NCBI GenBank assembly: GCA_002780795.1
Contig: PEUF01000041.1
Location: 3,826 to 67,825 of the forward strand
DNA: 64,000 nucleotides
Reading direction: 5' to 3'
DNA from: Candidatus Roizmanbacteria bacterium CG02_land_8_20_14_3_00_36_15
Lineage (GTDB): Bacteria > Patescibacteriota > Microgenomatia > UBA1406 > GWC2-37-13
The notes beneath the pieces are model-generated. The model saw nothing but the letters and a program-made list of their open reading frames with translations. It searched no databases and had not been told where the DNA came from. Below, piece by piece: positions 43-14,655 of this stretch (position 1 is its first letter; each line of letters opens with the position of its first letter). Made by a program: the position numbers and the translations under genes.

Positions 43-1479
43 CTATTTTTTAACTATCTTATAAATCGTTATCCCGGGCAAACTATATTTTTTAGCCGAA
101 GGAAAATATTGCTTGCCAAACTGCTCGGCCTCCCAGGAGTCAAATTGACTGATATCTTGATACGGTATTTCGGAAAAAACAATCAGCTCTTTTGATTGTG
201 AGTATAAAAATTCCGAGTCAGCGATATAACCAGCCTTGCGAAAAAAATATCGATACTCATAACCGATGGTGGCTAACAAATTTTGCTTGGTGATCTGAAT
301 AATATTAAAGTTCGTTGGGCTAACCAGCTTATTTTTAATTACAAAATCGACAGCTTTCTCAAATCGCTCCGGCGTCCTCCAGGAAGGTTGATACAAAGTC
401 TTAGGAAAGTAAAATAACTGAAAAGCAATCATCAAGGAAAAAAATATCATTGATAAAAGATTATTTTTAAAACTTAAAAAGATAAAAATAAGGTTAAAGA
501 ACAAATAAAAAGCCAGGCCAAAAAGATAGTGGGGAATGAATTGAAATCGTAAAATGACCGCGGCCAATAATAAGGTCAATAGGGAATTTAAATAGATTAT
601 TTTTATTTTACAATCTGGTTTCCGAAAATGAAAAATTATTCCGAGAATAAAATAGATAAATAAAGGATTAATTAAAACATAGCTCTTCATGCTTTCTGAT
701 AAAAACCAGATATTGGCTAAAACGTTTTTTTTGCCTGATAAACCGCCGGGAATATTGGTATTGTTTACCCACTTTAGATAAGACTTGTCAATAAAGGTGT
801 TTTTTAGCATGACAAAGTGATGAGTTAATTCAAAGATCGCTAGAGGCAGAAAACTCAAAATTAAACCGAGCAAAAAAATTCTTAGGCGTTTTTTTTCTTT
901 GGTAATTTTCCAGAAATAAATAATTAATCCTGGAAAAAAAATAAAAATAATAAAATGGAAATTGACAACGACACCGTATAGGAAACCTAAAAACCCCAGC
1001 CAAAGATCGTTTTTTGAATTAAAAAAATAGACTTCGGTTAACAAAAATAAAAATAGCGGAATAAAAGAATAAGCGTTACTGGGATTGCGACTACCAATAA
1101 GAAATAAGGTTGAAAGAGCTAAAACTAAACCAGCTGATAATCTTTGAATAAACTTAAATTTCTTGGCGCTGCGGACAAAAAAATAGCCAACGGCTAAAAT
1201 AAACAAAAGAGCATTAAAAAAATGAATAGAAATAAGCTGTCTTCCCGATAAAAGGTACGCCGGGACAAAAAGGTAAAAATAATATGGACCAAGATACAAG
1301 CCGCCAAAAGTAAGTTTCGGCCCAAGCCAGACAATCTTTCCTTGCGAAATTCTTAAGATTTCATGGGCGTCTCGGGCGAAGTCGGGATGGTAAAATAAAG
1401 ATTGTTTTAATTTATATGAATAAAGTAAAAAAACTAAAAGACAAATAATCGCCGGCAATAATATCTTTATTTTTTTCAT
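43..1479 (-). CDS. Integral membrane glycosyltransferase, ArnT/PMT (GT39/GT83)-like
   Basis: Long ORF with many hydrophobic helices and aromatic-rich loops, typical of polyprenyl-phosphate-dependent glycosyltransferases. ATG at 1479 (MKKIKILLP) preferred over the TTG at 1518. Confidence 0.5.
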   Translation of the reverse strand: MKKIKILLPAIICLLVFLLYSYKLKQSLFYHPDFARDAHEILRISQGKIVWLGPKLTFGGLYLGPYYFYLFVPAYLLSGRQLISIHFFNALLFILAVGYFFVRSAKKFKFIQRLSAGLVLALSTLFLIGSRNPSNAYSFIPLFLFLLTEVYFFNSKNDLWLGFLGFLYGVVVNFHFIIFIFFPGLIIYFWKITKEKKRLRIFLLGLILSFLPLAIFELTHHFVMLKNTFIDKSYLKWVNNTNIPGGLSGKKNVLANIWFLSESMKSYVLINPLFIYFILGIIFHFRKPDCKIKIIYLNSLLTLLLAAVILRFQFIPHYLFGLAFYLFFNLIFIFLSFKNNLLSMIFFSLMIAFQLFYFPKTLYQPSWRTPERFEKAVDFVIKNKLVSPTNFNIIQITKQNLLATIGYEYRYFFRKAGYIADSEFLYSQSKELIVFSEIPYQDISQFDSWEAEQFGKQYFPSAKKYSLPGITIYKIVKK

Positions 1480-1611
1480 AGCGGTCTTATAAAGTTCGTA
1501 GAATACGGATTTGAGCAAATGGCACGCGTGGCTGCCAAGTCTATAATCTGACCCTACGCCTACTAGCTTGCTGCATTTGCGAAAAGACGTATCTAAGAAC
1601 TTTTAATAATA

Positions 1612-3189
1612 TTACTGTTTTAGTTGTAACTGATAAATATTACAGACATTATAACAACCTGACTGCCTCAAAATTAACTCAAAATCGTTTTTCAAATCAT
1701 CAAATCTTTCCTGCCAATTGCGTAAATTTGCCACATAGTAATTGGAAACAAATACTGACTGGTTGGTTTTTAAAAGTTTTCGATAATATTCTCTTAAATT
1801 AGTCACTCCCATCTGCTCTAAAAATCCGTTTCTGCCGGGAAAAAAATCTTGGCTTTCCATCAGCGGTAGATAACGAAACTGTTGGTTATAGAAGAAATTG
1901 ATATAAAACGGGGGTAAAAAGGTCCCTAGGTAACTACCGCGAAACTCTTTTTGTTTAAAGAATTGGTTAAATTTTTGTACCGCTAAATAGTTCCACGGAT
2001 CCTCCTTATATTTGAAATTCAAGCTCAGCTGTTTTTTAAAGGTGATGATTAAACGTTCGTTTGGCCGATAACCGAAACTTTTCGCCGTTAATAAAATTGC
2101 TAACAAAACAATAATCAAAATAGTCGTCAACAACCGACCAAGCTTTCTTTGTATATACTCAACCAAGAAACCAAGTGGAACCAACCATAAAGGGAAAACA
2201 ACTAATAAATAGCGAGCGTCCTGAACATAAAAAAATGACATAAAAATAATCAAGCCGGCAATGAACGTTAATAACGTCACCATTGCCAACCTCGAACCCT
2301 TCTTTAATAAACCAATAAATAAACCGATTAAAATAAAAAAGCCGGCGAAAGGAACAAAAAAATGTTCTTGGAACCAAAGATAATGAGTTTGACCACCGAA
2401 TAAATTACCTAAGTAGAGTTTTAAATTAGGAATAAAATAAGCAACGGAAAAAATTTTTGCGCCGCCTACATCTTTTTGAACCAATAAAATTTTGCTGAAA
2501 TAAAGATAAGAAATAAAAACCAAGCCGATGACGACCGATGAATAAATAAATGTCTTACGGAATGGTTTCCCCGTTTTCTTCAGAAATATTTTTATCATGA
2601 CAAATAAATAGAAAGTCAGTCCTAAAGGAAGGTTGGAAAATTTAATTAACCAAAGAAGCACACCCCACACAGCTAACAAAATAACGTTGATTTTTGTCGT
2701 TTTGCTTAAAAGAAGATATAAACCGCTCATCAAAAAAAACAAACTGATATTCTCTGCCATTAACAAAGACGGTAGATTATAAATATAAAAATTAGTGACA
2801 AACATAAATGATAGTAGAGCGACTACTAACAGATTTTCCCTGAATATTTTTTTTAGAATTAAATTGAAAAATATAATTGTTCCTAACAGTAATAGAATAT
2901 TGGCATAGTAAAAAGCGCGGACGTCGCAAAGGACGGCAAAAAATGGCACCAGATAAAAAGAGTATAAGGGAGGAACAATCTGCTCGGCCCGCCAACTAAA
3001 AACGCTCATATTAAAACCTTTTCCATGAATTAGATTCCAGGCCGGCGCCGAGTAATAGAGAGCGTCAGGGAATGGTTCCAGATTAGCCACAAGAGACCTG
3101 ACTCCGAACGGGTTTTTAAAACTCAGACCAAGAAAGATTAATATGCTAATAAAAACTATCAACCAAAATAATCGAGTTTTACTAAGCAT
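1612..3189 (-). CDS. Integral membrane glycosyltransferase, ArnT/PMT-like paralog
   Basis: 525-aa polytopic membrane ORF, tandem with two similar genes. N-terminal loop reads PFPDALYYSAPAWN. Confidence 0.45.
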   Translation of the reverse strand: MLSKTRLFWLIVFISILIFLGLSFKNPFGVRSLVANLEPFPDALYYSAPAWNLIHGKGFNMSVFSWRAEQIVPPLYSFYLVPFFAVLCDVRAFYYANILLLLGTIIFFNLILKKIFRENLLVVALLSFMFVTNFYIYNLPSLLMAENISLFFLMSGLYLLLSKTTKINVILLAVWGVLLWLIKFSNLPLGLTFYLFVMIKIFLKKTGKPFRKTFIYSSVVIGLVFISYLYFSKILLVQKDVGGAKIFSVAYFIPNLKLYLGNLFGGQTHYLWFQEHFFVPFAGFFILIGLFIGLLKKGSRLAMVTLLTFIAGLIIFMSFFYVQDARYLLVVFPLWLVPLGFLVEYIQRKLGRLLTTILIIVLLAILLTAKSFGYRPNERLIITFKKQLSLNFKYKEDPWNYLAVQKFNQFFKQKEFRGSYLGTFLPPFYINFFYNQQFRYLPLMESQDFFPGRNGFLEQMGVTNLREYYRKLLKTNQSVFVSNYYVANLRNWQERFDDLKNDFELILRQSGCYNVCNIYQLQLKQ

Positions 3190-3200
3190 AATTGATAAAT

Positions 3201-4571
3201 TTAATCATGAACCCAAATTTCGAGATTCAGTTCACGAAAGGATTTTTCTTCTTGCAAATGAAAATGGTAATCGACCAATGTCTTTTTATAATCATATCCA
3301 TAAATTTCGGCTGAGTAGGGAATAATGATGATTTTTTGCGGTAAACTCGTTGAACTCTCCAAACTCGTCAACTCGTTAACCTTTAAATCCTTTCTATAAT
3401 ATAACAAAGGGTCTGATGACGATTTAATCATATAGACTGGTTGGTCTTTCGGTAGAGTTTGCGCCAAACTTTTCCAGTCCTCTCGATGAAACTTAGCGCC
3501 AGTAAGATATAAACACGAAAAAACAAAAAAACCAATCAAGACAATCTTTCTAAACATTGGATTGTCCTTTAACGAAAAAGAAAGTAATAAACACATGATC
3601 GGAATCAGATAGAGGAATCTAAAATATTGAAGTAGGGGAGTGACGAAGGAAACGGCAAAACCCAAAACTAATGGAAAAATAAATAAATAAATAAATAAAT
3701 TAACGGCATTGAGATTTGATATGTGGATTTGAGATATAACAAATATGCTCCATCCACCCGCCATTAAGTAGTATAGCCACTTTGGATAAAAGTCGATTCT
3801 GCCGATCGAAAACTTAATCGGTATCAATAATAAATTTTTAATATTCGCTTTCCCCAAAACCAACGACCAGTTGGTCACATTGGATAAAGATATTTTGGCA
3901 TTAATAAGTTGTTGATAAAGTAGGGGAGAGATTGCTAAAAAATAAACAAATACTGCAAATAAACAAATAAAGAAATTTCTAAATTGCTTTTTATATAAAA
4001 AATAAAGTAAGAAAGCTGTAATCAAAAATATCGATCCATAAAAAGTCATCAACGATAAAAATACAAATAAATTAAACAAGATTTGAGATTTAAGATTTGG
4101 ATTTACGTTTTGACTTTTGCCTTTTGACTTTTGAATTCGCAACATTTTTTCGAAATAATACAAGGCTACGGTGAGAAAAAATGTTGTCGCCATGTACATT
4201 CTTGCTTCCTGACTGTAATAAACAATCAGCGGATTGAAAAGAAAAAAAACCGCCGCAAACAAGCCGGCTCTATAGCCATACATCCATCTAACCATTTTAT
4301 ATATAACGTATCCTGTAGCCAAACTAAATAAAACCGACGGCATCCTAAGTGAAATTTCCGAGTAGCCGAAAAAATTAGTCCACAGTTTCATAAACCAGTA
4401 GTAGAGCGGGGGATGAAAATCGTTCAGTAAGAATCTACTAACAATCTGTGTCAATTTGTATTCTTGAACCACTCGCGCCGTCGTCGCCTCATCCAGCCAG
4501 AGAGATTGGTTAAGTCCAATAAGACGAACTAAAAATGCTAAAGTAAATATAAATATTAATTTCTTCTTCAT
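3201..4571 (-). CDS. Integral membrane glycosyltransferase, ArnT/PMT-like paralog
   Basis: First loop contains SLWLDEATT, an acidic DE motif of the ArnT/PMT family. Polytopic. Carries an (AAAT)n run and heptamer arrays in frame. Confidence 0.55.
   Translation of the reverse strand: MKKKLIFIFTLAFLVRLIGLNQSLWLDEATTARVVQEYKLTQIVSRFLLNDFHPPLYYWFMKLWTNFFGYSEISLRMPSVLFSLATGYVIYKMVRWMYGYRAGLFAAVFFLFNPLIVYYSQEARMYMATTFFLTVALYYFEKMLRIQKSKGKSQNVNPNLKSQILFNLFVFLSLMTFYGSIFLITAFLLYFLYKKQFRNFFICLFAVFVYFLAISPLLYQQLINAKISLSNVTNWSLVLGKANIKNLLLIPIKFSIGRIDFYPKWLYYLMAGGWSIFVISQIHISNLNAVNLFIYLFIFPLVLGFAVSFVTPLLQYFRFLYLIPIMCLLLSFSLKDNPMFRKIVLIGFFVFSCLYLTGAKFHREDWKSLAQTLPKDQPVYMIKSSSDPLLYYRKDLKVNELTSLESSTSLPQKIIIIPYSAEIYGYDYKKTLVDYHFHLQEEKSFRELNLEIWVHD
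3711..3738. repeat. Heptamer array (GAGATTT family) inside an ArnT-like ORF
   Basis: gagattt|gatatgt|ggatttg|agatata. Shares the 15-mer ATGTGGATTTGAGAT with 46636-46650. (AAAT)5 lies adjacent at 3679-3700. Confidence 0.7.
4081..4137. repeat. Composite heptamer array inside an ArnT-like ORF
   Basis: atttgag|atttaag|atttgga|tttacgt|tttgact|tttgcct|tttgact|tttgaat. Confidence 0.75.
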
Positions 4572-4620
4572 TTGTTATAATTTTATAACACTAATAATCA
4601 ATAGCCAACAACTAGTTTAT

Positions 4621-4692
4621 GCGGTGGTAGTTCAGTGGTAGAATGTCTCCCTTCCAAGGAGAAGGTCAGGGGTTCAAATCCCCTCCACCGCT
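4621..4692 (+). tRNA. tRNA-Gly (anticodon UCC)
   Basis: Cloverleaf read by eye: acceptor GCGGTGG/CCACCGC, D arm GTTC-AGTGGTA-GAAT, anticodon arm TCTCC-CTTCCAA-GGAGA, T arm AGGGG-TTCAAAT-CCCCT. No encoded CCA. Confidence 0.9.
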
Positions 4693-4697
4693 CAAAA

Positions 4698-4943
4698 ATG
4701 ATTATTTTCATCAAGGGATCAATTAATTCTGGCAAGTCCTACTGTCTCCAAGATATTAGCTAAAAAAATAACCAACACAGTAATCCTGGAAATTGATGTA
4801 TTAAGAAAGTTTTATTGATTGGTTACTATTAGAAGAATCAATACCCATAAATCTTGAGAATGCTTGTTCATTAATAAGAAACTTTGCCAAAAAAAATATA
4901 AATGGTAAATCGACCGAAGAAGTACGATGTCATTCTTCCTAAA
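4698..4943 (+). pseudogene. Degraded P-loop NTPase/kinase-like gene remnant
   Basis: ATG at 4698 gives MIIFIKGSINSGKSYCLQDIS then TAA. Walker A GxxxxGKS is present. Downstream frames continue with short kinase-like fragments (KKITNTVILEIDVLRKFY*) broken by stops. Confidence 0.35.
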
Positions 4944-5112
4944 CATTTTTTTATATCAATAGCCTTATTGTAACCCTTTATTTATGTCTAGGTTGCCATA
5001 TCGAGATATATAAAAGCTTGACAGTTTGTAAAATTTATAGTTAAATATAAGTAAAGGTTCCCGCTTGATAACAAGAGCCCCTGGGCTCTTCCCAAAAGGA
5101 TAGTCAGGCGGG

Positions 5113-5823
5113 TCAATTGTTATAAGGATAATATTCAGTAATTCCTCTTTGAAATATTGAAAATTCACTCTTAATTTTTGATTTAATTTGATTGATCGGT
5201 CTTAGTTCTTTTCTTTCATTTTTGACATAGATTGCCCAACCACAATAATCTGCTATTTGACAATTCAAATCTGCTTTTGATTGATGAAAATAAATATAGA
5301 AAGGTTTTTGACAGTGCTGTTTAAGATATGTTTTTAATGATTTCAGAATTGTTTGTCTTTTGTTGTCTGTAAAAAGGTTGTCTAAAACAACAACGATTTT
5401 TTCTATAGAGGTTGAATTAAATCTTTTGAAAATATATTGCAAGAGCGTTTGACATACAATACGGTAAAATTCTGCCCCAATAATTCTTGACATAATTTTC
5501 CCTTTTTTTGAACACATCTCACTATAAAGGCTTGGATTGGCCTTATTTTTTTGTGCAACAACAGAATCAACATAAAAATCATCATATCCAGAAATTAAAC
5601 CATAAATTCCATCTCTCACAATTTGTTTATCTTCAGTAGCATGAAAATATTCTTGATCTGTTTTTTCTGATAAAAGTTGATAACGATATTCTAATAATTT
5701 TTCGCGTTCATTAAGAGGTCTAATTGTGCTGATTGCAGTCAATATAAAATATTTTGTTCCATCTGAGGAAAAATCAAAATTGCCTGATTCGTCTATAAAA
5801 ATAAATAATGTTTTATTATTCAT
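5113..5823 (-). CDS. DUF3800 family protein
   Basis: N-terminus LFIFIDESGNFDFS matches the DUF3800 signature (hydrophobic strand followed by DESG). Confidence 0.65.
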   Translation of the reverse strand: MNNKTLFIFIDESGNFDFSSDGTKYFILTAISTIRPLNEREKLLEYRYQLLSEKTDQEYFHATEDKQIVRDGIYGLISGYDDFYVDSVVAQKNKANPSLYSEMCSKKGKIMSRIIGAEFYRIVCQTLLQYIFKRFNSTSIEKIVVVLDNLFTDNKRQTILKSLKTYLKQHCQKPFYIYFHQSKADLNCQIADYCGWAIYVKNERKELRPINQIKSKIKSEFSIFQRGITEYYPYNN

Positions 5824-6179
5824 GGTTTTTCTTTTGGATGGACAAAAAACTTAGGATCTACTATAACTATTCCTTCTTCGTTACTACAAAAAACTCCATT
5901 CTCCACAGGTATTTGATTATCCGATTCTTCAAAGCGTTTCTTTGTAAATGACAATGCAAACTTTCGAGCATTATTCATATCAGCAGAAAGTTTGGCTTTA
6001 TCTTCAAGATATTCACCGGTAACCCATACAAAATATTCCTTGACTAATTTATTATTTTCAGGGTAATCGCTAATGAATGAAATAATAATACGCCAAGTTT
6101 CAACGTTTTCTTTTACAGGTACAGCATGGAGAATTTTTATACGTATATTATACGTAAGTCCAATTTCATCGGTTTTCAT
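5820..6179 (-). CDS. Hypothetical protein, translationally coupled to the DUF3800 gene
   Basis: 119-aa ORF whose stop overlaps the DUF3800 start by 4 nt (ATGA). No recognisable motif. Confidence 0.45.
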   Translation of the reverse strand: MKTDEIGLTYNIRIKILHAVPVKENVETWRIIISFISDYPENNKLVKEYFVWVTGEYLEDKAKLSADMNNARKFALSFTKKRFEESDNQIPVENGVFCSNEEGIVIVDPKFFVHPKEKP

Positions 6180-6361
6180 AGTCTTGTTTTTAATTATTTT
6201 ATCAGAAAAATAAAGATCATTAAAACTTAATACTTGTTTCTTTAGTTATTTTCTGATCTATATTTTATAAATCATCAAAATTTGGTATATAATACTTCTT
6301 AGCGGATTGTTGATAAAAGGTTCTAATTTTGTTCACTAGCCCGCTCAGAAGATAAAGTTGT

Positions 6362-7393
6362 TCATTTGTCCCAACCATTCGGATGAACTTTATACCACTT
6401 AACCAAGGATTCGATCGAATCCTTGATCGTCCTCTTCGGCTCCCAGTTTAAGACCTTTTTGGCTTTTTTTACTGAAGCGATTTTCTTCGGATCATCACCC
6501 TGCCGTGGCGTTGTTTTCTTAAGTGAGAACTTAACGCCAGTTACTTCTTGTACTTGATTAACAACTTCCAAAACGGAGCTTCCTGTCCCTGTCCCCAGAT
6601 TAATTATCTCGCCGAATCTGTCTTTGTCCTCCGAAGCTTTAGCGAAGAAGGATAATTTTTTAACCGCTAGTAAATGCGCCTTATTGAGGTCAACGACGTT
6701 GATATAGTCGCGAATCGGAGTCTCATCCGGCGTGTTAACCTCGGGACAGGTTAGATAAAAAGGTTCTATGCCTAAAGCACCACGAACGGCATTTTGCACT
6801 AACAACGTGGACGGTTTTTTTGAATCACCAATCAACCCATCGTCTGAGGCACCGCAAACATTGAAGTAACGGAGGATATAATACTGTAATCCTTTTAGTT
6901 TTCCAAACCACTGAATTATTTCTTCAACCATTTTTTTGGAAACACCATAAGGGCTGGAAGGATTAAGCGGGTGTTTCTCGTCGATAGGAAAGTATTCGGC
7001 CTCGCCATAAACAGCGCAGGTTGAGGAAAAAATAATTTTTTTTATATTATATTTATCCATCGTTTGCAGTAAATTTAACGATCCGCAAACATTATTAGAA
7101 AAATATTTTTCCGGATATTTCATCGACTCATCAACCACACATGAAGCCGCGTAATGAACAACTGCGTTAAATGAAGATTCTTTTTTAAAGATAGGGGAAA
7201 TGTCTTCGTTCAAATCAGCTTCATACACCCTTAGAGTGTCTGAACCGAACTTTTTCTGAAGTAACTCTAAAGGCTGACGGTAACCGGTAGAAAAATTGTC
7301 CAGCGCCACCACTTCATAGCCATTCTGAAGAAATAGATAGACAGCCACCGAACCAATATAACCCCCCGCGCCTGTGATTAAAATTTTTTCCAT
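6362..7393 (-). CDS. galE: UDP-glucose 4-epimerase
   Basis: ILITGAGGYIGS Rossmann motif, STCAVYG, catalytic YGVSK (YxxxK). Start at MEKILITG (7393) avoids overlap with the upstream gene. Confidence 0.85.
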   Translation of the reverse strand: MEKILITGAGGYIGSVAVYLFLQNGYEVVALDNFSTGYRQPLELLQKKFGSDTLRVYEADLNEDISPIFKKESSFNAVVHYAASCVVDESMKYPEKYFSNNVCGSLNLLQTMDKYNIKKIIFSSTCAVYGEAEYFPIDEKHPLNPSSPYGVSKKMVEEIIQWFGKLKGLQYYILRYFNVCGASDDGLIGDSKKPSTLLVQNAVRGALGIEPFYLTCPEVNTPDETPIRDYINVVDLNKAHLLAVKKLSFFAKASEDKDRFGEIINLGTGTGSSVLEVVNQVQEVTGVKFSLKKTTPRQGDDPKKIASVKKAKKVLNWEPKRTIKDSIESLVKWYKVHPNGWDK

Positions 7394-7400
7394 ATCTACA

Positions 7401-8324
7401 TTATAAAACTTTTGACTTTTCACTTCTAACTTTTAACTTATTTATTGGGTGCCAGTGGATTCTTCCTTCCGCCAAATAAATTCCTCCAAAAATTAAAATT
7501 CCTCCAAGAATATAAAATATATTCGGATATTCATGAAGTAAGGGAGCAGCTACAACTATAGCAGCCAAAGGATCAATATAGGTAAAGACTCCTATCTCTT
7601 GAGCTTTAAGTTTTGAAACTCCATAATAAAAAAGAAAGTAGGAGAGGGCGGAAGAAAAAAATACTCCAAATATTATTCCTGTCCATCCAGCAATATTAAG
7701 AAAGGAAATATCCCAACCGGCAAATTCTTTTGGTATAAATGGTATGAAAGTCAGACTACCAAATAAAAATGCGATAGCTGAAACTTGAATGGGTTTTATT
7801 TTTTTTAGAACATCATGTCCGATAATTGTCTGAAATACTGTCCCTAAGGTAGCTATCAAAATAAAGACATTTCCTTCAACAGCGCCTATGGCTAATTCTT
7901 TTCCATTTAAAATAAGTGGAGATAAAATGATAAATAATACACCTGATAAAGCGATTAACATACCTGTCAACACTCTTAACTTTGGTCTCTCCTTCAGAAA
8001 TATTATTGATAACAAATAAATAAATATTGGTCCGGAGGAAGCTATAACCGGCACATTAATACTTTCCGTTTTTTCTAATCCCAAAAAGAAAAAGGAAATA
8101 TTTATAGTAATCCCAAAAAATCCTACGAGAAGAACCTCCAGCCATTGACGTAGCGTCAATTTTTGCCATTTTCCGATTGCTAATGGTAAAAAAATTAAAC
8201 CGGCGAAAGAAAACCTGATAAATGCCAGTATAAAAGGGGGAATATTTGTTAGGGAAAACTTAAAAATTGGCGAGGCCATACCCCAGATAAAATTAGCGAT
8301 GATGAGGGCAAGAATTGGATTCAT
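7401..8324 (-). CDS. EamA/DMT family transporter
   Basis: About 10 TM helices arranged as two EamA-like halves. The C-terminal tail (KLKVRSEKSKVL) is encoded by a heptamer array. Confidence 0.7.
   Translation of the reverse strand: MNPILALIIANFIWGMASPIFKFSLTNIPPFILAFIRFSFAGLIFLPLAIGKWQKLTLRQWLEVLLVGFFGITINISFFFLGLEKTESINVPVIASSGPIFIYLLSIIFLKERPKLRVLTGMLIALSGVLFIILSPLILNGKELAIGAVEGNVFILIATLGTVFQTIIGHDVLKKIKPIQVSAIAFLFGSLTFIPFIPKEFAGWDISFLNIAGWTGIIFGVFFSSALSYFLFYYGVSKLKAQEIGVFTYIDPLAAIVVAAPLLHEYPNIFYILGGILIFGGIYLAEGRIHWHPINKLKVRSEKSKVL
7408..7442. repeat. Heptamer array ACTTTTN x5 (EamA C-terminus / galE upstream)
   Basis: acttttg|acttttc|acttcta|actttta|acttatt. Confidence 0.8.
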
Positions 8325-8327
8325 TAA

Positions 8328-8400
8328 ATAAGTTTATAAAGTTTTTAAAGTTTGTAAAGTTCTTAAAGACATTTCTTTATAAACTTTATGGACTTTACTA
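8328..8400. repeat. Intergenic inverted arms of ATAAAGTTT-type repeats
   Basis: ataaagtttataaagtttttaaagtttgtaaagttcttaaag ... ctttataaactttatggactttac. The left and right arms are complementary. Confidence 0.7.
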
Positions 8401-8401
8401 A

Positions 8402-9310
8402 CTAGTTTTTCTTCTTCTGAAAAAAAACTATCAACTCTCCAATCATTCCCGTCATCACCACCTGTATGCCGACGATGACAAGAAGCATTCCTAAAAATAG
8501 TATTGGCCGACGATATAAGAGAACGTGATAGAAAAGCCGTTCTACCGCCAAATACATAAGGATAACGTTTCCCATAAAAAATAAAATTGTTCCAAATATG
8601 CCGAAAAAATGAAGCGGTTTTTCCGAAAATTGGTAAAGGAAATAAGCGGTTAAAGTATCAAGAATTCCGATGAAGAGCTTTGATTTACCAAACTTAGATT
8701 TACCAAACTGCCTGGGATGGTTTTTTACCTCAATCTCAACCACCTTGTATCCTTTGTAAAAAGCATATAGAGGAAAAAAACGAAAGTTATTTCCATAGAA
8801 GGTAAAGTCCTGTAATACTTCTTTTTTAAACGCCTTAAAACCACAGTTAATATCGGTAAAAGGTGAACGAAAAAATATTTTTAAAAAAAGTTTGGCTATG
8901 AATGAATAGGTTTTAATAATAAAATTATCCTGTCTGTCTTGTCTTATTCCGTTGACAAGATCGTAACCTTGACCTATTTTTTCTAGTAATCGAAGAAGAT
9001 CATTCGGCTCGTCTTGAAGGTCAGCATCCATAAAAATAATTACCTCGCCGGATGAATTTTCTATGCCGGTCTGCAAAGCCTTTCCTTTCCCAAACCTCTT
9101 CCGGTGGCTAATTAGTTTAATTTGGTAATTTTGAGTTTTGAACTGCAATTTTGAATTTTGAATTTTGAATTTTGAACTATCATCGCTTCCATCATCAACC
9201 AATATAATCTCTGCTTCTTTTTTTATCTTTTCTAAAACTTCAATTAAATGTTTAATTAAAGTAGGCAGGCTTTCCGCCTCGTTGTAAAAGGGAATTATTA
9301 TAGATAACAT
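8402..9310 (-). CDS. Family 2 glycosyltransferase (polyprenyl-phosphate sugar synthase type, two C-terminal TM helices)
   Basis: SIIIPFYNE, VDDGSDD and MDADLQDEP motifs plus C-terminal TM helices, as in GtrB/ArnC/DPM-synthase-like enzymes. Confidence 0.8.
   Translation of the reverse strand: MLSIIIPFYNEAESLPTLIKHLIEVLEKIKKEAEIILVDDGSDDSSKFKIQNSKLQFKTQNYQIKLISHRKRFGKGKALQTGIENSSGEVIIFMDADLQDEPNDLLRLLEKIGQGYDLVNGIRQDRQDNFIIKTYSFIAKLFLKIFFRSPFTDINCGFKAFKKEVLQDFTFYGNNFRFFPLYAFYKGYKVVEIEVKNHPRQFGKSKFGKSKLFIGILDTLTAYFLYQFSEKPLHFFGIFGTILFFMGNVILMYLAVERLFYHVLLYRRPILFLGMLLVIVGIQVVMTGMIGELIVFFQKKKN
9127..9177. repeat. Heptamer array AATTTTG x6-7 inside a GT2 ORF
   Basis: aattttg|agttttg|aactgc|aattttg|aattttg|aattttg|aattttg. 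Confidence 0.85.
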
Positions 9311-9315
9311 GGTTT

Positions 9316-9369
9316 AACTTTATGAACTTTATAAACTTTATAAACTTTATGGACTTTATGACTTTATAA
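9316..9369. repeat. Intergenic nonamer array AACTTTATR x6
   Basis: aactttatg|aactttata|aactttata|aactttatg|gactttatg|actttataa. Confidence 0.85.
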
Positions 9370-10842
9370 CTTCTTATAAACTTCAATTCCTTCTTTTTCT
9401 TCAAACACCTTTTTAAAACTCTTGTTGGTAAGCAAATGTTTATAAAACACAACTGGTAAATTATCTTTATCTAAACTACCAATTTCATCTTTGTTAATAA
9501 TAACATAATCAGCCTGTTGATATTTATTAATCCTGCTTAAAATGTTTGCCGTGGGAACTTTAGCTGAGATATAGGCTGGGTCGTAAAGGAAGTTGTAATA
9601 ATAGCGCCGGCTAGTAAAAAATGGGGCCAGCTTTGGTGTGGTGGCCACTTTATACTTATCACCGGCTAAAATATTTTTCCATCGATAGATAATAAAAAGC
9701 TTTTTTTGGTCAAGCTTATCCAAACGGTAGGGCTCTTTCATCAGCTTCAGCGGCAAAGGATTATATCGGCGAATAGAGACATAACTCATATAAATAAAAA
9801 GGGCCAAAATCACAATGCTCCATCGATATTTTTTTATTCGGGCGGCACCGTTGACAGCCGACAAAACAAGAAAGGGAACGATTAAACTGTTGTAATGAAA
9901 ATAGATGCTTCTCATATTAGGATTAGAACTAAGAATATTGATTGCCAGTTCAGGTAAACTGATCAAAAATACAAGCGGTGAGAAAAAGAAAAATGGAAAG
10001 TAAGGATAAATCAGTCGATAAAGATAATTTTTAGTATCAGTACGAGTTAAATAATTTATCACTAAACCGGGCTTTTTAATAATATTGATTATTACTTTAG
10101 TCGGTGTATCACCAAAATCGTCGAAATACTGCAAAGCAAAATGGCTATGTTGCCGGAAATAGGGGATAATAATAAAAAAAGATGTAATAAAAAAAACCAG
10201 CCCAGACAGCCCGATAATTAACCCCAATCTTCTGTTCTTATAAAATAGGACGATATAAATCCCGAACAAAAAAACAATCATGCCAACATGCTCTTTTGTC
10301 AAAAGCGACAAAAGGATGAACAAAATAACCAGTTTATCTTTCTTTTTGAGAAGAAAGTAATAAGCCCAAAGGAAAAAACTGGTGGCCAGGAGTACGCCGT
10401 GAAAATCAAAAAGAGTAGCACGTTGGACCGGGAAGAAAAATAAAAAAGATAGACAAAAAACCAATCCCATCAACTTATTTTTTAACAGTTTTTCTGAGAT
10501 TAGATAGATAGCTAGCCCTCCCAAAGCCAGAATAACTGTCTGCCCAACTAATAGAATGGCTGGATTAGGATAAAACCAATAAAAAGGAGTAAATAAAACT
10601 AGGATCGGGTCAAAATGAATTGCTAGCCGCGACATATTCTGACGGAATTCCTGATTGGTCATCTCTAAAAAATGACCCCGCGAAGTATTGTAAACCACCT
10701 GATTCATGATCCCCAGATCATAGTAGTGAGAGTTTAAACTTAACATCCGGTGAATTGATAGATAAGAAAAGAGAATTATATAACCAACAATCAACAAACC
10801 AAGAATCACTTCAATTCCATAACTTTTAATAATATATTTCAT
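9364..10842 (-). CDS. DUF2079-like polytopic membrane protein
   Basis: N-terminal HYYDLGIMNQVVYNTSRGHFL resembles the DUF2079 signature. Many TM helices. Confidence 0.55.
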   Translation of the reverse strand: MKYIIKSYGIEVILGLLIVGYIILFSYLSIHRMLSLNSHYYDLGIMNQVVYNTSRGHFLEMTNQEFRQNMSRLAIHFDPILVLFTPFYWFYPNPAILLVGQTVILALGGLAIYLISEKLLKNKLMGLVFCLSFLFFFPVQRATLFDFHGVLLATSFFLWAYYFLLKKKDKLVILFILLSLLTKEHVGMIVFLFGIYIVLFYKNRRLGLIIGLSGLVFFITSFFIIIPYFRQHSHFALQYFDDFGDTPTKVIINIIKKPGLVINYLTRTDTKNYLYRLIYPYFPFFFFSPLVFLISLPELAINILSSNPNMRSIYFHYNSLIVPFLVLSAVNGAARIKKYRWSIVILALFIYMSYVSIRRYNPLPLKLMKEPYRLDKLDQKKLFIIYRWKNILAGDKYKVATTPKLAPFFTSRRYYYNFLYDPAYISAKVPTANILSRINKYQQADYVIINKDEIGSLDKDNLPVVFYKHLLTNKSFKKVFEEKEGIEVYKKL

Positions 10843-10875
10843 TATTTTTTACCGTCTAATCTTAACATTGGGAAC

Positions 10876-10914
10876 TGAAAATTCAATGAAAATTGCAAAT
10901 TAAAAATTGGAAAT
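10876..10914. repeat. Heptamer array TGNAAAT between the xer gene and the DUF2079 gene
   Basis: tgaaaat|tcaa|tgaaaat|tgcaaat|taaaaat|tggaaat. Confidence 0.75.
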
Positions 10915-11864
10915 TACTGATTACCTGAATGATACTTCTCATGTATCTCTCTTAATCTTGTATTGGTCACATGAGTATAGATCTGGGTGGTGGAAATATT
11001 TTTATGACCGAGCATTTCCTGAACGGCGCGCAAATCAGCCCCATGATTCAATAGATCTGTGGCAAATGAATGTCTTAAGGCATGGGGACCTAGACGATCA
11101 ACCAATCCGGCTTTTTTTCTATATTTTTCAACTAGACGTTCAATCGATCTTGCTGACAAACGCAATTTCTCATCGGTCAAACCAAGTTTGGACTTTGGAC
11201 CTGAATATCTGATGAAAAGTGGGCGATAGGAATCGTCTCTTTTGCGTAGATATTGGTTTAACCATTCCTTAGCTTTTTTAGACAAAAAAACTACTCTGCG
11301 TTTGCCGCCCTTACCCAAAACACTGAACTCCCCTGTTTTAATATTCGCCTCATCGCGATTCAAAGAAACTAGTTCCGAGACACGCAGGCCGGTAGAGAAA
11401 AGCACCTCTAATATAGCTCTGTCACGAAGCCCCATAATCTCTCGAGTATCGACAATGTTAAACAGTCTATTCAGGTTTTCCGGACTTAAAAATTTTATGT
11501 TACGGTCTCGTTGTTTTCCCAGTTCAATCATCTCAGGCGAGATGACTTTGACGTGCTGTTTTATCAAATAGCGAAGCATGCTTCTGATTGCTACCAGAAA
11601 GTAAGTTTGCGTTTGGCGCGCCAAGACACCCTTAAATGGATTTTTATACTGATGAGAAAGATATAATCGGAAGTTTCTGATCGTCTCTTCATTAATATCT
11701 TCAATGTTTGCATCTTCACTTTGATTTTTGATTTTTGCACTTTGAACTACCCAGTTCTGAAAGAACTGGAGATAGTACCCATACATTTTCACCGTCTTTA
11801 ACGAAAGATTTTTATCCAGTTCGCAGTATTCTAAAAATCTAAGTACCGCTTCCTTGATTGACAT
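10914..11864 (-). CDS. Tyrosine recombinase, XerC/XerD family
   Basis: C-terminal catalytic region HALRHSFATDLL...GHKNISTTQIYTHV. N-terminal SAM-like core-binding domain. Confidence 0.85.
   Translation of the reverse strand: MSIKEAVLRFLEYCELDKNLSLKTVKMYGYYLQFFQNWVVQSAKIKNQSEDANIEDINEETIRNFRLYLSHQYKNPFKGVLARQTQTYFLVAIRSMLRYLIKQHVKVISPEMIELGKQRDRNIKFLSPENLNRLFNIVDTREIMGLRDRAILEVLFSTGLRVSELVSLNRDEANIKTGEFSVLGKGGKRRVVFLSKKAKEWLNQYLRKRDDSYRPLFIRYSGPKSKLGLTDEKLRLSARSIERLVEKYRKKAGLVDRLGPHALRHSFATDLLNHGADLRAVQEMLGHKNISTTQIYTHVTNTRLREIHEKYHSGNQ
11716..11747. repeat. Heptamer array inside the xer ORF
   Basis: cactttg|atttttg|atttttg|cactttg, encoding SAKIKNQSE. Confidence 0.65.
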
Positions 11865-11910
11865 ACTTCAATATTAAACGACGTTATAAATAAAATCAAG
11901 ACGAACGCGG

Positions 11911-13263
11911 CTATAAGTTTTCCCAATTAGCTTTTACCCAAAGATAGGTACCTAAGGCCATAGTAAAGTTAAAAGGCGCCCTATAACCATTAAAAACCCC
12001 TCCTCTTCCTGGTGTACCGTCGGCGAAATAGATTTCATGCAAGCCTTTATGTCTTATTATTAAATCTTCGATCTTTCCTAAAGCTTCTTTTGCTTCCAAT
12101 TCTTTACCGGTTTTTTTTAAAGCTGCCGCAAATAAGATGGATACTTCGGGCCAAAAAATGCCTTTATCTCCGCTGTTATACCACTGGCTAAACCTTAATA
12201 TTCTCAAACCTCTGTCAATCAATCTATCCGGGTATCCTGGATGATTAACGGTTTCTACCAATTGATACTGTCCGAAGCGCATATTTCCATTTGATACTTC
12301 AGCCAATATTTTTTCCGCTCTGGCTTGATCAGCTATGCCGGTAACGATGGCCCAAAAATTAGCTAAGCTATCAAAATAGTCGTATCTTTCACCTTTTTCA
12401 TCAACCCAATCGAGGTAATGACTCCTTGTTTCATCTAGTTGCGGCCAAAATAATTTATTTATATTATTTTTCAGAATATTTGTCATTGCTATCAATTGCT
12501 TCGACCATTCATCATTACCCGCAACAATTACGCCATCTCTCAAATCCAATAATGTTTTGTACCAAAGAACGTTTGTTAATAGTACATTTCCCGATTTGCA
12601 AATAGAGTCTTGACGAGTCGAAAGGGCAGCTTCAGTTATCAAAGATGTACTATCATTGACAAATTCATCTAAATAACTTCTGAAAAAATCTTTTAGATGG
12701 TTTTGATGTGCCTGCCAAAATTCTTTTTTTTCGTCGTTAGATACATTCTGCGACGACAAATAATTACCAGCTAACATTAAAATTAAAAAATTATCAGCCA
12801 TATGTTGAGACTTACCTGCTAAAATATCTGGGTTTAAGAGTATTTTAGCTAGAGGTATTGTTCTGTCTTTTTCTAGATGAGCTGGAATTTTTAATTTAGC
12901 GTGGCTCAACATATACAGAGCGTGAATATAAGACATGCTTCGGTAAGGAATGAGTGGAGACTGATCGAGAAAAAAATTTAAACTGGCCCGAACCGTTTGT
13001 AATTTCTTCTCGTCGGCTGTAGATAAACTACCTAATCCTCCCCAGACAGCGTCTCTTAACCAAACACCCTGGTCAAAATGACCCTCCTTTTTACCACAAG
13101 CAGCATAACCAATAGATCTAGCGCAGCGATCTAATCCCGCAGAAGCAATATAAACAGGATTTTCTTCACTCATAGCTTTAATTAAAGTATACCTGAACGT
13201 GTCGAAGGACGAAGTTGGAAAAACGATTGTTAGTGCTCTGTTTATTCGCAAATCCGAACGCAT
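11911..13263 (-). CDS. (alpha/alpha)6-barrel glycoside hydrolase-like protein (GH100/GH133/debranching-enzyme-like)
   Basis: WLRDAVWGG and a C-terminal GYRAPFNFTMALGTYLWV-type pattern, typical of six-hairpin glycosidases. The true start may be the internal MSEENP. Confidence 0.45.
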   Translation of the reverse strand: MRSDLRINRALTIVFPTSSFDTFRYTLIKAMSEENPVYIASAGLDRCARSIGYAACGKKEGHFDQGVWLRDAVWGGLGSLSTADEKKLQTVRASLNFFLDQSPLIPYRSMSYIHALYMLSHAKLKIPAHLEKDRTIPLAKILLNPDILAGKSQHMADNFLILMLAGNYLSSQNVSNDEKKEFWQAHQNHLKDFFRSYLDEFVNDSTSLITEAALSTRQDSICKSGNVLLTNVLWYKTLLDLRDGVIVAGNDEWSKQLIAMTNILKNNINKLFWPQLDETRSHYLDWVDEKGERYDYFDSLANFWAIVTGIADQARAEKILAEVSNGNMRFGQYQLVETVNHPGYPDRLIDRGLRILRFSQWYNSGDKGIFWPEVSILFAAALKKTGKELEAKEALGKIEDLIIRHKGLHEIYFADGTPGRGGVFNGYRAPFNFTMALGTYLWVKANWENL

Positions 13264-13330
13264 TTTGTTAAGCTCGCCCGCCCGCCACCGGGTTCGCTAT
13301 AGCTCCGGCGTGGCTGACGCCGGGCCTCCG

Positions 13331-13347
13331 AAAAAGTCGGCTCGAAC
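13331..13347. repeat. 17-bp direct repeat AAAAAGTCGGCTCGAAC, copy 1
   Basis: Identical 17-mer at 14305-14321. The two copies bracket the Fic gene. Confidence 0.8.
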
Positions 13348-13414
13348 AGGTAAAATCCGAAAGGATTTTACTTAAAGAGAAAGCGCGAAAATTTTTAAAG
13401 TACAAGATTAATCA

Positions 13415-14194
13415 TTAAAAATTACACCAACTAAGATCAGAATCCACGACCATAAAACGGATAAATTCTTCTTTTAATTTATCTTTTGGTGTACCAATTT
13501 TTTGAGCTAATAATTCTAGACCTTGCTCCGGTAATGCTCCATTCAATTTAAGCTCTTTAGTTACTATCTCAGCGGACAACCCCTTATGTAAGCCGAAATA
13601 GACCACTCCCAAAACTAATCTCTCAAAATCAGAATTAAAATTTATTTGAAATTTATTTTCACCAGTTTGAGTAATACCTTTTCTACCAATACCAAGTATT
13701 TGTTTTATATCATCTTCCGTTAATTCTGACGTGTCACCGCTTTTATCAACTAAAGTTTTTAAAGCTCTTGCAACTCTACCATTACCATCTTTATATTTGT
13801 GCAGTAAAACTTCTAGGAAATAAACACCTTTTGCTAACCTACTTCTGTCTATAGAACCGTCTACTAAGCCACCAGTTAAGGCAACTAGATTTTCATTTTC
13901 CAGTTTTGAACTTTCAGCGGGTTTTCTCCAAAGAACCATTCCTAAAGCATGCATTATTACTGTATCTGGAGTTGAGGAGATATTGTTTTGGGCACTTGCG
14001 CCAACAACAGATCTATTTATATCGTCTGTTGAATCAGTAACAAATCTTTGGAGAAGAGTATTATCCTTACTTTTTACAATTCCTCTTAAATCAATAAGCT
14101 TCTGCCGTAGCACAGAACCAACTTGAGGAAGCGAAAATTCCCGAAAGGCTTGAGAGTCGATATCTTTTGCTGAAGGAGGGTTATTAAAATCCAT
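13415..14194 (-). CDS. Fic/DOC family protein (putative AMPylase)
   Basis: Fic motif HKYKDGNGRVAR (HxFx[D/E]GNGRxxR). An upstream SSKLEN matches the [S/T]xxxE[G/N] inhibitory motif. Confidence 0.8.
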   Translation of the reverse strand: MDFNNPPSAKDIDSQAFREFSLPQVGSVLRQKLIDLRGIVKSKDNTLLQRFVTDSTDDINRSVVGASAQNNISSTPDTVIMHALGMVLWRKPAESSKLENENLVALTGGLVDGSIDRSRLAKGVYFLEVLLHKYKDGNGRVARALKTLVDKSGDTSELTEDDIKQILGIGRKGITQTGENKFQINFNSDFERLVLGVVYFGLHKGLSAEIVTKELKLNGALPEQGLELLAQKIGTPKDKLKEEFIRFMVVDSDLSWCNF

Positions 14195-14267
14195 ATGTTA
14201 TAATTATTCTATCAAATTTTATTAATTTTTTCTAAGTGCTCGCGGTAGCGAGCACAAAATCGCGCGC

Positions 14268-14302
14268 GCAAAAAATAATTGCAAAGATCTGGCGATCTTT
14301 GC
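14268..14302 (-). terminator. Rho-independent terminator-like hairpin downstream of tRNA-Leu
   Basis: Minus strand reads GCAAAGATC-GCCA-GATCTTTGC (9-bp stem) followed by AATTATTTTTTG. Confidence 0.5.
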
Positions 14303-14304
14303 AA

Positions 14305-14321
14305 AAAAAGTCGGCTCGAAC
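14305..14321. repeat. 17-bp direct repeat AAAAAGTCGGCTCGAAC, copy 2
   Basis: Identical to 13331-13347. A partial third copy (CGGCTCGAA) lies at 14340-14348. Confidence 0.8.
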
Positions 14322-14426
14322 TACTTCTTAAATGATAAACGGCTCGAATTTTCCCTGTCCGAAGCCTCTGCGGCGCTGGCCGCGAGGGCGGGCGCGGCCA
14401 GCGCCTACCCCGACGATCTCTTTTTG

Positions 14427-14509
14427 TGCCGGGGAGAGGAGTTGAACCCCCACGTCCTTGCGGACACAAGGTCCTAAACCTTGCGCGTCTGCCATTCCGC
14501 CACCCCGGC
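14427..14509 (-). tRNA. tRNA-Leu (anticodon UAG), class II with long variable arm
   Basis: Minus strand GCCGGGG...CAAGG-TTTAGGA-CCTTG, variable arm TGTCCGCAAGGACGT, T loop TTCAACT, acceptor CCCCGGC-A. Confidence 0.9.
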
Positions 14510-14655
14510 ATGAATTAATTATAACATGTGAATCTAAGATCGTCTTATTAACTAAATAACTATAGGACTGAACTCCAAACATAATTAAATTGTGGACAAC
14601 TTCTAAAAACTAACTCACTATAAGTTAAAGATTGCTTTTGTGATATAATATTTTT

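What the first reader, a model, noticed from the sequence alone, without database searches (positions are those of the whole stretch)
13264..14426. The Fic gene sits in a 1.1-kb cassette bounded by repeats, directly beside tRNA-Leu
The Fic ORF (13415-14194) is bracketed by several repeat features.
- An exact 17-bp direct repeat, AAAAAGTCGGCTCGAAC, at 13331-13347 and 14305-14321, plus a partial copy at 14340-14348.
- Outside these, GC-rich blocks with the inverted 9-mer CGCCCGCCC (about 13274) and GGGCGGGCG (about 14386).
- Strong hairpins: GTAAAATCC-GAAA-GGATTTTAC at 13350-13371, GTGCTCGC/GCGAGCAC at about 14237, and a 13-bp stem GGCGCTGGCCGCG/CGCGGCCAGCGCC at 14371-14404.

The right end abuts the 3' end of tRNA-Leu(UAG). 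The composition is strikingly different from the surrounding AT-rich DNA. This fits a small mobilised or integrated toxin cassette at a tRNA site, although no integrase lies inside it.
Basis: partly seen in the sequence, partly recalled or inferred. Interest (0 to 1): 0.6.

Follow-up and report, generated by a model that had tools for sequence, protein, structure and literature searches.

The report
Recombinase-less remnant of tRNA-targeting element
The repeats around the Fic-like gene are real, but they are the standard junction modules of a mobile element family of ultra-small (CPR) bacteria that inserts at tRNA gene ends with a large serine recombinase; this copy has lost its recombinase and is a fixed, decaying 1.2-kb fossil.

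Summary

**What the flanks are.**
- The right GC block (14256-14425) is the last ~60 codons of a large serine recombinase (LSR) gene. In relatives that gene ends against a convergent tRNA in at least 24 of 31 loci.
- The left block is the conserved "arm + 17-mer + promoter-like" head of the family's cargo module.
- In 17 intact elements the two 17-mers are inverted, about 1.6 kb apart around the LSR gene, and carry the same sequence variant in 13.

**What happened here.**
- Only this genome's two loci (the window and contig C8) have direct copies, with another ORF in place of the LSR.
- LSR homology starts exactly at a 22-bp motif, AAAATCGCGCGCGCAAAAAATA. Left of it is cargo-type sequence, so recombination between two motif copies probably deleted the LSR.
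- A 4-bp core, GTGC, marks both ends (13233-13236 and 14426-14429).

**Cargo and status.**
- The cargo is a divergent Fic-fold protein.
- The cassette is present in all 24 same-species contigs read, and the Fic ORF is broken in three of the six distinct contig versions compared.
- No LSR was found in this 91%-complete assembly.

Earlier agents of this scan reported the same element family on other genomes.

The parts
13233..13236 (.). Left copy of the 4-bp core GTGC (element/flank junction)
   Evidence: In the closest intact relative, L082, the P arm ends ...AGAGCAC and is followed by the Q arm. In the window the identity stops at the same base and flank sequence follows. The same GTGC is the tRNA-side junction.
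13237..13330 (+). P arm: GC-rich outer arm of the cargo module
   Evidence: The 17-mer-proximal part (about 13300-13346) is 93-96% identical to the P arms of L082 and L132; the rest aligns more loosely. It is homologous to the arm at contig C8. In standard elements this arm occurs as an inverted pair around the cargo.
13331..13347 (+). 17-mer copy 1 (head of the cargo module)
   Evidence: Exact repeat. The P-17mer-Y junction type recurs in 13 or more CPR loci.
13348..13414 (+). Y module: hairpin 13350-13371 plus the conserved AAAGAGAAAGCGCGAAAATTTTTAAAG stretch
   Evidence: Conserved after the 17-mer in C8, L120, L100, L086, L026 and others. It resembles the region upstream of recombinase genes.
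13415..14194 (-). Cargo gene: divergent Fic-fold protein (259 aa) with catalytic-loop motif HKYKDGNGRVAR
   Evidence: About 20 homologues, none with a Pfam domain. H132, N138, G139, R140 and R143 are invariant. A family profile hits FICD in the PDB at E 0.011. The AlphaFold2 model has pLDDT 87, and the Foldseek top 40 are all Fic proteins.
14206..14234 (-). Promoter-like site upstream of the Fic-like ORF
   Evidence: Consensus scan: TAGAAA-17-TAGAAT with a TG. This is a pattern match only.
14236..14255 (.). Hairpin hp1* (GTGCTCGC-GGTA-GCGAGCAC), cargo-module type
   Evidence: 23 of 23 bases are identical to the hairpin that precedes an unrelated cargo gene in Woesebacteria locus L120. There is no match in recombinase genes.
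14256..14277 (+). M2 motif AAAATCGCGCGCGCAAAAAATA: junction between cargo-type and recombinase-type sequence
   Evidence: Recombinase homology begins at 14253-14256. M2 occurs both in recombinase 3' ends and at the far end of cargo modules.
14279..14304 (-). Hairpin hp2; on the tRNA strand it is followed by TTATTTTTTG (terminator-like)
   Evidence: It is the only terminator-like site in the scan. Across 13 elements 92% of cells are paired, 5 of 11 pairs show compensatory changes, and 0 of 500 shuffles reach the observed score.
14305..14321 (+). 17-mer copy 2 (inside the recombinase 3' end; codes ...KKVGSN...)
   Evidence: The X-17mer-Q junction type occurs in 18 or more loci.
14322..14425 (+). 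Q arm: tail of the recombinase reading frame and tRNA-side arm; holds CGGCTCGAA (14340-14348) and the 13-bp GC hairpin (14372-14405)
   Evidence: 97% identical over 110 nt to the recombinase 3' end of L082. 62% amino-acid identity to residues 439-507 of the G032 recombinase. In standard elements this arm has a perfect inverted copy upstream of the recombinase.
14426..14509 (-). tRNA-Leu(UAG), the integration target; its last bases (GTGC, 14426-14429 on the + strand) are the right copy of the core

Best explanation
Window 13233-14429 is a ~1.19-kb, recombinase-less derivative of a two-module integrative element family found in this CPR (Microgenomates-type) order.

**Standard layout (read on the tRNA strand)**
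- tRNA end (core), then arm Q'.
- Recombinase module: [17-mer, hairpin hp2, motif M2, hairpin hp1, large serine recombinase gene read antisense, its promoter].
- Arm Q, an inverted core, then arm P.
- Cargo module: [17-mer, Y, cargo gene(s), hp1*, M2].
- Arm P', core, then flank.

**Layout here**
- tRNA-Leu, GCAC, Q', 17-mer, hp2, M2, hp1*, Fic-like gene, Y, 17-mer, P', GCAC, flank.

**Most likely history**
- A standard element integrated at the tRNA-Leu 3' end by serine-recombinase attP x attB recombination. This step is inferred from the family.
- The cargo module interior was flipped between its inverted arms.
- Recombination between the two 22-bp M2 copies, now in direct orientation, deleted the recombinase gene, arm Q and one arm P.

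**Consequences**
- The deletion joined the cargo to the last ~60 recombinase codons.
- The cargo-side and recombinase-side 17-mers ended up as an exact direct repeat.
- Both outer junctions survive, so the element is formally like a cis-mobilizable element. No cognate recombinase was found in this genome, and the copy is fixed and decaying.
- On the tRNA strand, hp2 plus its T-run probably terminates tRNA transcription. The Fic-like gene has its own promoter-like site.
For: **Right block is a recombinase 3' end**
- 62% amino-acid identity to residues 439-507 of an intact 507-aa protein with Resolvase, Recombinase and Zn_ribbon_recom domains.
- 97% DNA identity to the L082 recombinase end.

**Family architecture**
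- The recombinase ends against a convergent tRNA in at least 24 of 31 loci, at many different tRNA identities.
- 50-159-bp perfect inverted arms flank the recombinase, and a 17-30-bp inverted copy of the 17-mer region lies upstream.
- Cargo modules are flanked by inverted P arms.
- Only two junction types exist, P-17mer-Y and X-17mer-Q.
- There are 17 inverted pairs around recombinase genes, with matched 17-mer variants in 13. The only same-variant direct pairs are the two loci of this genome.

**Chimeric junction at M2**
- Left of M2 matches only a cargo-type hairpin (L120, 23 of 23). Right of M2 matches recombinase ends.
- Contig C8 shows the same design around another ORF, and its hp1 resembles the cargo-type hairpin of L100.

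**Boundaries**
- L082 shows P'-AGCAC-Q'. The window shows P'-AGCAC-flank and tRNA-GGCAC-Q'.
- L026 and L120 show the same three-junction logic with their own tRNA ends.

**Synteny and status**
- tRNA-Leu is followed directly by xer in G008 and G022.
- No Recombinase domain was found in the genome.
- The cassette is identical in place in 24 same-species contigs, with the Fic ORF broken in three of the six distinct contig versions compared.
Against: - No empty site, circular junction or intermediate (flipped but undeleted) form was found for this locus. An exact-pattern scan for the predicted empty site gave only chance hits.
- The order of events (flip then deletion, inversion at M2 then deletion, or exchange between two elements) cannot be told apart.
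- The 4-bp core is too short to be significant on its own.
- The assembly is 91% complete and breaks at these modules (C12 end, C54 start, C8 end), so an unassembled recombinase copy cannot be excluded.
- The molecular role of the 17-mer is unknown.
- That two loci in one genome show the same derived form could point to a regular process rather than two accidents.
Confidence: 0.68

Rival explanations
1. One reading: an independent mini-cassette (Y, Fic, hp1, M2, hp2, 17-mer) integrated by site-specific recombination at a pre-existing 17-mer. This duplicated the 17-mer as an att core, and the cassette is mobilised in trans by a recombinase.
For: - Exact 17-bp direct repeats flank one ORF at two loci of the genome, and each locus has its own matched variant (AAAAA or AAACT).
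- The layout P-17-Y...X-17-Q is formally what attB (P-17-Q) x attP (X-17-Y) would give.
Against: - Neither P-17-Q nor X-17-Y was seen among about 35 module copies in CPR loci.
- Matched 17-mer pairs already exist, inverted, in every intact element.
- Sequence left of M2 is cargo-type and sequence right of M2 is recombinase coding sequence, which fits a deletion junction.
- Serine integrases need only a 2-bp identical core (established knowledge).
- Fic homologues elsewhere lack the modules.
Confidence: 0.12
2. The direct-repeat cassette form is the primitive state: an array of gene cassettes separated by hp1-M2-hp2-17mer-Y boundary elements. The standard recombinase elements would then derive from it by insertion of GC-rich palindromic arms.
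For: - Recombinase and cargo modules share one design: promoter-like Y/B, gene, hp1, M2.
- Recombinase-less forms exist, for example tRNA-Gln in L120 with a fused Q'Q palindrome followed by P-17-Y.
Against: - Only 2 of 20 paired loci have the direct form, and both are in one genome that lacks the recombinase.
- The window's X-17-Q still carries an open recombinase frame, 62% identical to intact proteins, as expected of a recent truncation.
Confidence: 0.08
3. An integron-like or Xer-driven cassette: the nearby XerC/D-like tyrosine recombinase (10914-11864) moves hairpin-bounded cassettes, like attC or pdif modules.
For: - A tyrosine recombinase lies 1.4 kb away and has weak integron-integrase hits.
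- Hairpin-rich boundaries flank a single ORF.
Against: - The xer gene sits next to tRNA-Leu in relatives that lack all the modules, so that is its native position.
- Its best hits are XerC and XerD.
- The boundaries are recombinase coding sequence and arms of the serine-recombinase family.
- No GTTRRRY/RYYYAAC cores or dif-like 28-mers were seen on reading the sequence.
Confidence: 0.03
4. The GC blocks are structured RNA genes, or copies of the genome's GC-rich hairpin repeats, and are unrelated to mobility.
For: - The right block folds strongly as RNA (z = -4.3).
- hp2 shows covariation.
Against: - No Rfam family matched, even at E up to 10.
- The P and Q arms have no other copies in the genome beyond the element-related loci.
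- The block is an open recombinase reading frame.
Confidence: 0.04

Closest known systems
Integrative elements and prophages with large serine recombinases (A118/LI, Bxb1, phiC31, SPbeta SprA, Tn4451 TnpX, SCCmec CcrAB)
   Same: - The family's recombinase has the Resolvase, Recombinase and zinc-ribbon domains.
- Integration is site-specific.
- Only a very short identical core is shared at the two ends.
   Different: - The target is the last bases of almost any tRNA gene.
- The elements carry long perfect inverted arms around each module and an internal inverted copy of the junction.
- The recombinase gene runs into the att arm and the tRNA.
- This window's copy has no recombinase.
Cis-mobilizable elements (CIMEs) and pseudo-SCC cassettes
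   Same: The element has lost its integration gene but keeps both end junctions and its cargo. This matches the CIME definition in PMC5704250.
   Different: - Mobilisation in trans is untested, and no cognate recombinase was found in the genome.
- The loss happened by recombination at an internal conserved 22-bp motif rather than by random decay.
Fic/DOC domain proteins (FICD/HYPE, SoFic, BT_2513, NmFic)
   Same: - The catalytic-loop motif is HKYKDGNGRVAR, against the consensus HxFx[D/E]GNGRxxR.
- The predicted fold matches Fic structures.
   Different: - It scores below every Pfam and NCBIfam threshold.
- It has Y in place of F, and many homologues have N in place of D/E.
- TM-scores are only about 0.4.
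- No partner antitoxin gene is present.
Integron gene cassettes (attC)
   Same: Single promoter-proximal ORFs are bounded by folded, structurally conserved elements, and the cargo is swappable.
   Different: - There is no integron integrase and no attC core sites.
- The boundaries belong to a serine-recombinase element.
- An earlier integron-like reading of CPR hairpin cassettes in this scan was later marked as fallen.

Membership tests
Large-serine-recombinase integrative element | Encodes a recombinase with Resolvase, Recombinase and Zn-ribbon domains | tested here: not met
   The window holds only the last ~60 codons, and the genome shows no PF07508 match. Intact relatives do have all three domains.
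Large-serine-recombinase integrative element | Site-specific insertion with a short identical core at both ends | tested here: inconclusive
   GTGC lies at 13233-13236 and 14426-14429, placed by homology to the L082 junction. Four base pairs is not significant alone, and no empty site was found.
CPR two-module tRNA-end element family (this scan's earlier findings) | Abuts the 3' end of a tRNA gene, with the recombinase 3' end convergent on it | tested here: met
CPR two-module tRNA-end element family (this scan's earlier findings) | Each module is framed by long inverted arms, with an internal inverted junction | tested here: not met
   The window keeps one Q arm and one P arm only; the inner copies are deleted. 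Relatives show the full layout.
Cis-mobilizable element (CIME) | Lacks the integrase but retains attL and attR | tested here: met
   Both outer junctions (tRNA/Q and P/flank) are present by homology, and there is no recombinase.
Cis-mobilizable element (CIME) | Can be excised or moved by a related element's recombinase | not testable with these tools
   This needs an excision assay. Population data show no absence alleles in the 24 contigs read.
Fic/DOC family | Catalytic motif HxFx[D/E]GNGRxxR | tested here: met
   The motif is HKYKDGNGRVAR (F replaced by Y). H, N, G, R and R are invariant in 18 homologues.
Fic/DOC family | Passes the Pfam PF02661 gathering score | tested here: not met
   The window protein has no hit. 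5 of 18 homologues hit, at E 0.05 or weaker.
Fic/DOC family | Fic fold | tested here: met
   The AlphaFold2 model has pLDDT 87.4. The best Foldseek hit is 3cuc (E 1.3e-4, probability 1.0), and the top 40 hits are all Fic proteins, but TM-scores are only about 0.3-0.43.
Integron cassette | attC with R''/R' core sites and an integron integrase | tested here: not met
   The neighbouring recombinase is best matched by XerC/XerD and sits in its native position. The boundary sequences are recombinase coding sequence and element arms.

The most novel reading that the evidence does not exclude
Loss of the recombinase here may not be an accident. The 22-bp M2 motif and the 17-mer are present in both modules of every element. 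They could form a built-in route by which the elements swap or shed modules: a flip between the arms, then M2 x M2 recombination. That would turn a mobile element into a fixed one-gene cassette with its own promoter and terminator. Two independent loci in this genome took the same route, which would make the frame Y-gene-hp1-M2 a general cassette-exchange system of CPR bacteria.
Probability: 0.12. Interest if true: 0.6.

Novelty: new variant of a known kind. Interest (0 to 1): 0.4.

Why it matters
- CPR bacteria have tiny genomes, and few mobile elements have been described for them. I found no paper on this family in two full-text searches.
- This locus shows how a widespread tRNA-end-targeting serine-recombinase element ends its life: the cargo gene stays and the recombinase is cut out at a conserved internal motif.
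- It gives a concrete rule for annotating similar "orphan" GC-rich blocks next to tRNA genes in AT-rich CPR genomes. They are recombinase gene tails and element arms, not RNA genes or target duplications.
- It adds a small, divergent Fic-fold family to the cargo list.
- It documents a hairpin with compensatory changes inside a protein-coding region. That hairpin probably stops tRNA transcripts from running antisense into the recombinase gene.

Tried and rejected
- **Known RNA families.** Rfam at gathering scores and at E up to 10 found nothing but the tRNAs. I had considered RNase P, tmRNA and SRP readings of the GC blocks because the 17-mer resembles GGAAAGUCCGGGCUC and a T-arm. I dropped them once the block proved to be a recombinase reading frame.
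- **Genome-wide repeat.** The 17-mer and arms occur only at element-related loci: C14, C8, the end of C12 and the start of C54.
- **Type III toxin-antitoxin reading.** I considered repeats plus a terminator upstream of a toxin. I rejected it because the C8 cassette has its ORF in the opposite orientation.
- **Integron or Xer reading.** Rejected.
- **Predicted empty site.** An exact-pattern scan of metagenome contigs for tRNA end plus flank gave 17 chance hits and no tRNA.
- **Presence/absence variation.** Same-species contigs showed none.
- **Literature.** Two full-text searches found no description of the family.
- **PADLOC.** Only a weak SoFic hit at the motif, E 0.003.

Full report
**1. Observation**

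The window is AT-rich; the whole genome is 36% GC, 1.06 Mb in 59 contigs and 91% complete.
- The 17-mer AAAAAGTCGGCTCGAAC is exact at 13331-13347 and 14305-14321. Even with 3 mismatches these are the only two copies in 64 kb, where 0.25 are expected.
- The partial copy, the four hairpins, the inverted 9-mers and the adjacent tRNA-Leu(UAG) at 14426-14509 on the minus strand are all as described.
- Only the flanking blocks are GC-rich. The ORF has the composition of its surroundings.

**2. The right block is the tail of a recombinase gene**

No Rfam family matches the blocks. A DNA search in 60 relatives found the right block joined to tRNA-Leu in genome G032. There it is the 3' end of a 507-aa ORF.
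- That protein has Resolvase, Recombinase and zinc-ribbon domains, so it is a large serine recombinase.
- tblastn places its residues 439-507 on window 14253-14459 at 62% identity. A shorter piece maps to contig C8.
- There is no intact copy anywhere in the assembly.

**3. The family**

Among 151 genomes of the order, 83 carry such recombinases, often several and often at contig ends.
- In 31 loci examined, the gene ends against a convergent tRNA in at least 24, and the tRNA identities vary widely.
- The gene is framed by 50-159-bp inverted arms at 94-100% identity. The tRNA-side arm (Q) reaches 4-7 bases into the tRNA.
- A 17-30-bp copy of the 17-mer region lies inverted about 250 bp upstream of the start.
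- Beyond it come a GC-rich arm (P), the 17-mer, a variable hairpin and a conserved promoter-like stretch (Y), followed by cargo genes.
- Cargo ends with a hairpin (hp1*), the 22-bp motif M2 and the inverted arm P'.
- A census of all CPR copies of the core motif found only two junction types, P-17mer-Y and X-17mer-Q.
- In 17 elements the pair is inverted, 1.1-1.7 kb apart (mostly about 1.6 kb), and carries the same variant (AAAAA, AAACT, AAAAT, AAACC) in 13.
- The only direct pairs with a matched variant are the window and contig C8 of this same genome. Each holds a non-recombinase ORF.
- Earlier agents of this scan described the same two-module, tRNA-end-targeting family on other genomes. I reached the layout independently. 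I then used their idea of a short tRNA-end core repeated at the module junctions and checked it on L026, L120 and L082.

**4. Boundaries**
- Relatives G008 and G022 have tRNA-Leu(UAG) followed directly by the XerC/D-like gene, which in the window lies at 10914-11864. The DNA between them is therefore an insertion.
- L082 is the closest intact element. Its P arm is 95% and its Q arm 94-97% identical to the window's. It shows the internal junction P'-AGCAC-Q'.
- The window's P arm ends with the same AGCAC, then diverges into flank. The tRNA side reads GGCAC-Q'.
- The element is therefore 13233-14429, with GTGC at both ends.
- The 420-aa ORF to the left is flank. Other assemblies call it with its start at 13173, so it does not overlap the P arm.
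- That ORF is itself rare in relatives and looks like a six-hairpin glycosidase.

**5. How the direct repeat arose**
- Recombinase homology begins exactly at M2, at 14256.
- Left of M2, the hairpin GTGCTCGCGGTAGCGAGCAC is identical to the cargo-type hairpin in front of an unrelated gene in Woesebacteria locus L120. By eye, the AT-rich stretch before it resembles the stretch before that L120 hairpin. The hairpin matches nothing in recombinase genes.
- Right of M2, everything matches recombinase 3' ends.
- C8 is built the same way, and its hp1 resembles the cargo-type hairpin of L100.
- The simplest path is a flip of the cargo interior between its inverted arms. This puts the two M2 copies in direct orientation. 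M2 x M2 recombination then removes the recombinase body, arm Q and one arm P.
- The two 17-mers were already identical within the element, and the deletion left them as direct repeats 974 bp apart.
- What is shown: the module homologies, the junction position and the census. What is inferred: the order of events and the enzyme or pathway responsible.

**6. Cargo**
- The 259-aa protein has about 20 homologues at 46-59% identity. None has a Pfam domain.
- They sit in unrelated contexts without these modules.
- The motif HKYKDGNGRVAR is conserved. A family profile finds FICD at E 0.011.
- An AlphaFold2 model (pLDDT 87) matches almost only Fic structures, with modest TM-scores.
- It is a divergent Fic-fold protein of unknown target.

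**7. Expression signals**
- On the tRNA strand, hp2 followed by TTATTTTTTG is the only terminator-like site.
- Its pairing is kept by compensatory changes across 13 elements, even though it lies inside coding sequence.
- A promoter-like site lies between hp1* and the Fic start.

**8. Status**
- In 24 contigs of the same species from different samples the cassette is in place.
- In three of the six distinct contig versions compared, the Fic ORF carries a nonsense change and/or one-base insertions.
- With no recombinase in the genome, this is a fixed fossil.

**9. Comparison and novelty**
- The element works like a serine-integrase island and is now formally a CIME-like remnant (PMC5704250).
- It fails the membership feature "encodes the recombinase".
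- The family itself is unusual: it can target almost any tRNA end, has nested inverted arms, and its recombinase gene runs into the att arm. I found no paper on it.
- This scan has already reported the family several times, so the new points here are the recombinase-less form, the M2 junction and the hairpin covariation.

**10. Limits**
- No empty site or circular form was found.
- The assembly breaks at these modules.

Noticed in passing
G000 contig C8:84600-86578 (locus L003 1380-3017): A second recombinase-less cassette in the same genome: P arm, AAACTGTCGGCTCGAAC, Y, a 291-aa ORF of unknown function, hp1, M2, hp2, the same 17-mer, then the Q arm. Further rearranged module pieces follow and the contig ends there. 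Its arms closely resemble an intact element in genome G073 (L026).
   Followed up: partly
G000 contig C12 end (5880-5969) and contig C54 start (1-100): Contigs break inside further module copies: Y-hairpin-17mer-P at the end of C12, and hp1-M2-hp2 at the start of C54. More element copies, possibly including a recombinase, may therefore be unassembled.
   Followed up: no
window 13847, 13929, 13941 (compared with loci L208, L210, L211): In other assemblies of the same species the Fic-like ORF is broken. Two contigs carry a G-to-A nonsense change plus a one-base insertion. One contig carries a different one-base insertion.
   Followed up: partly
window 11911-13263 (-): The ORF listed as 450 aa probably starts at 13173 (420 aa, as called in other assemblies), because the longer form overlaps the element's P arm. 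It has weak similarity to rhamnosidase and trehalase-type six-hairpin glycosidases and is nearly absent from 150 relatives.
   Followed up: partly
locus L082 (contig CAZIHS010000030.1), oriented 340-5608: One recombinase element, with a 475-aa cargo gene, is inserted inside the recombinase gene of another, at about residue 120-124. The result is a split outer gene next to tRNA-Leu(GAG).
   Followed up: no
locus L067 (G007:C1:232000-250000) 3600-14570: An 11-kb island behind tRNA-Ser(CGA). It holds the recombinase module plus two cargo segments, each headed by an XRE-type HTH gene and framed by inverted P-type arms. The first cargo has genes of 458, 304 and 947 aa. The island ends with a direct repeat of the tRNA end, Q arm and 17-mer.
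   Followed up: partly
locus L120 (Woesebacteria MGGS01000015.1) 6934-7260: tRNA-Gln is followed by a short fused Q'Q palindrome and then directly by P-17mer-Y and cargo. This is a layout in which the recombinase module is cleanly absent.
   Followed up: no
window 14279-14304 and homologous positions in 12 other elements (alignment A2): A hairpin inside the recombinase coding region keeps its pairing through compensatory base changes, which also change the encoded amino acids. This points to selection on the nucleic-acid structure within a gene.
   Followed up: yes
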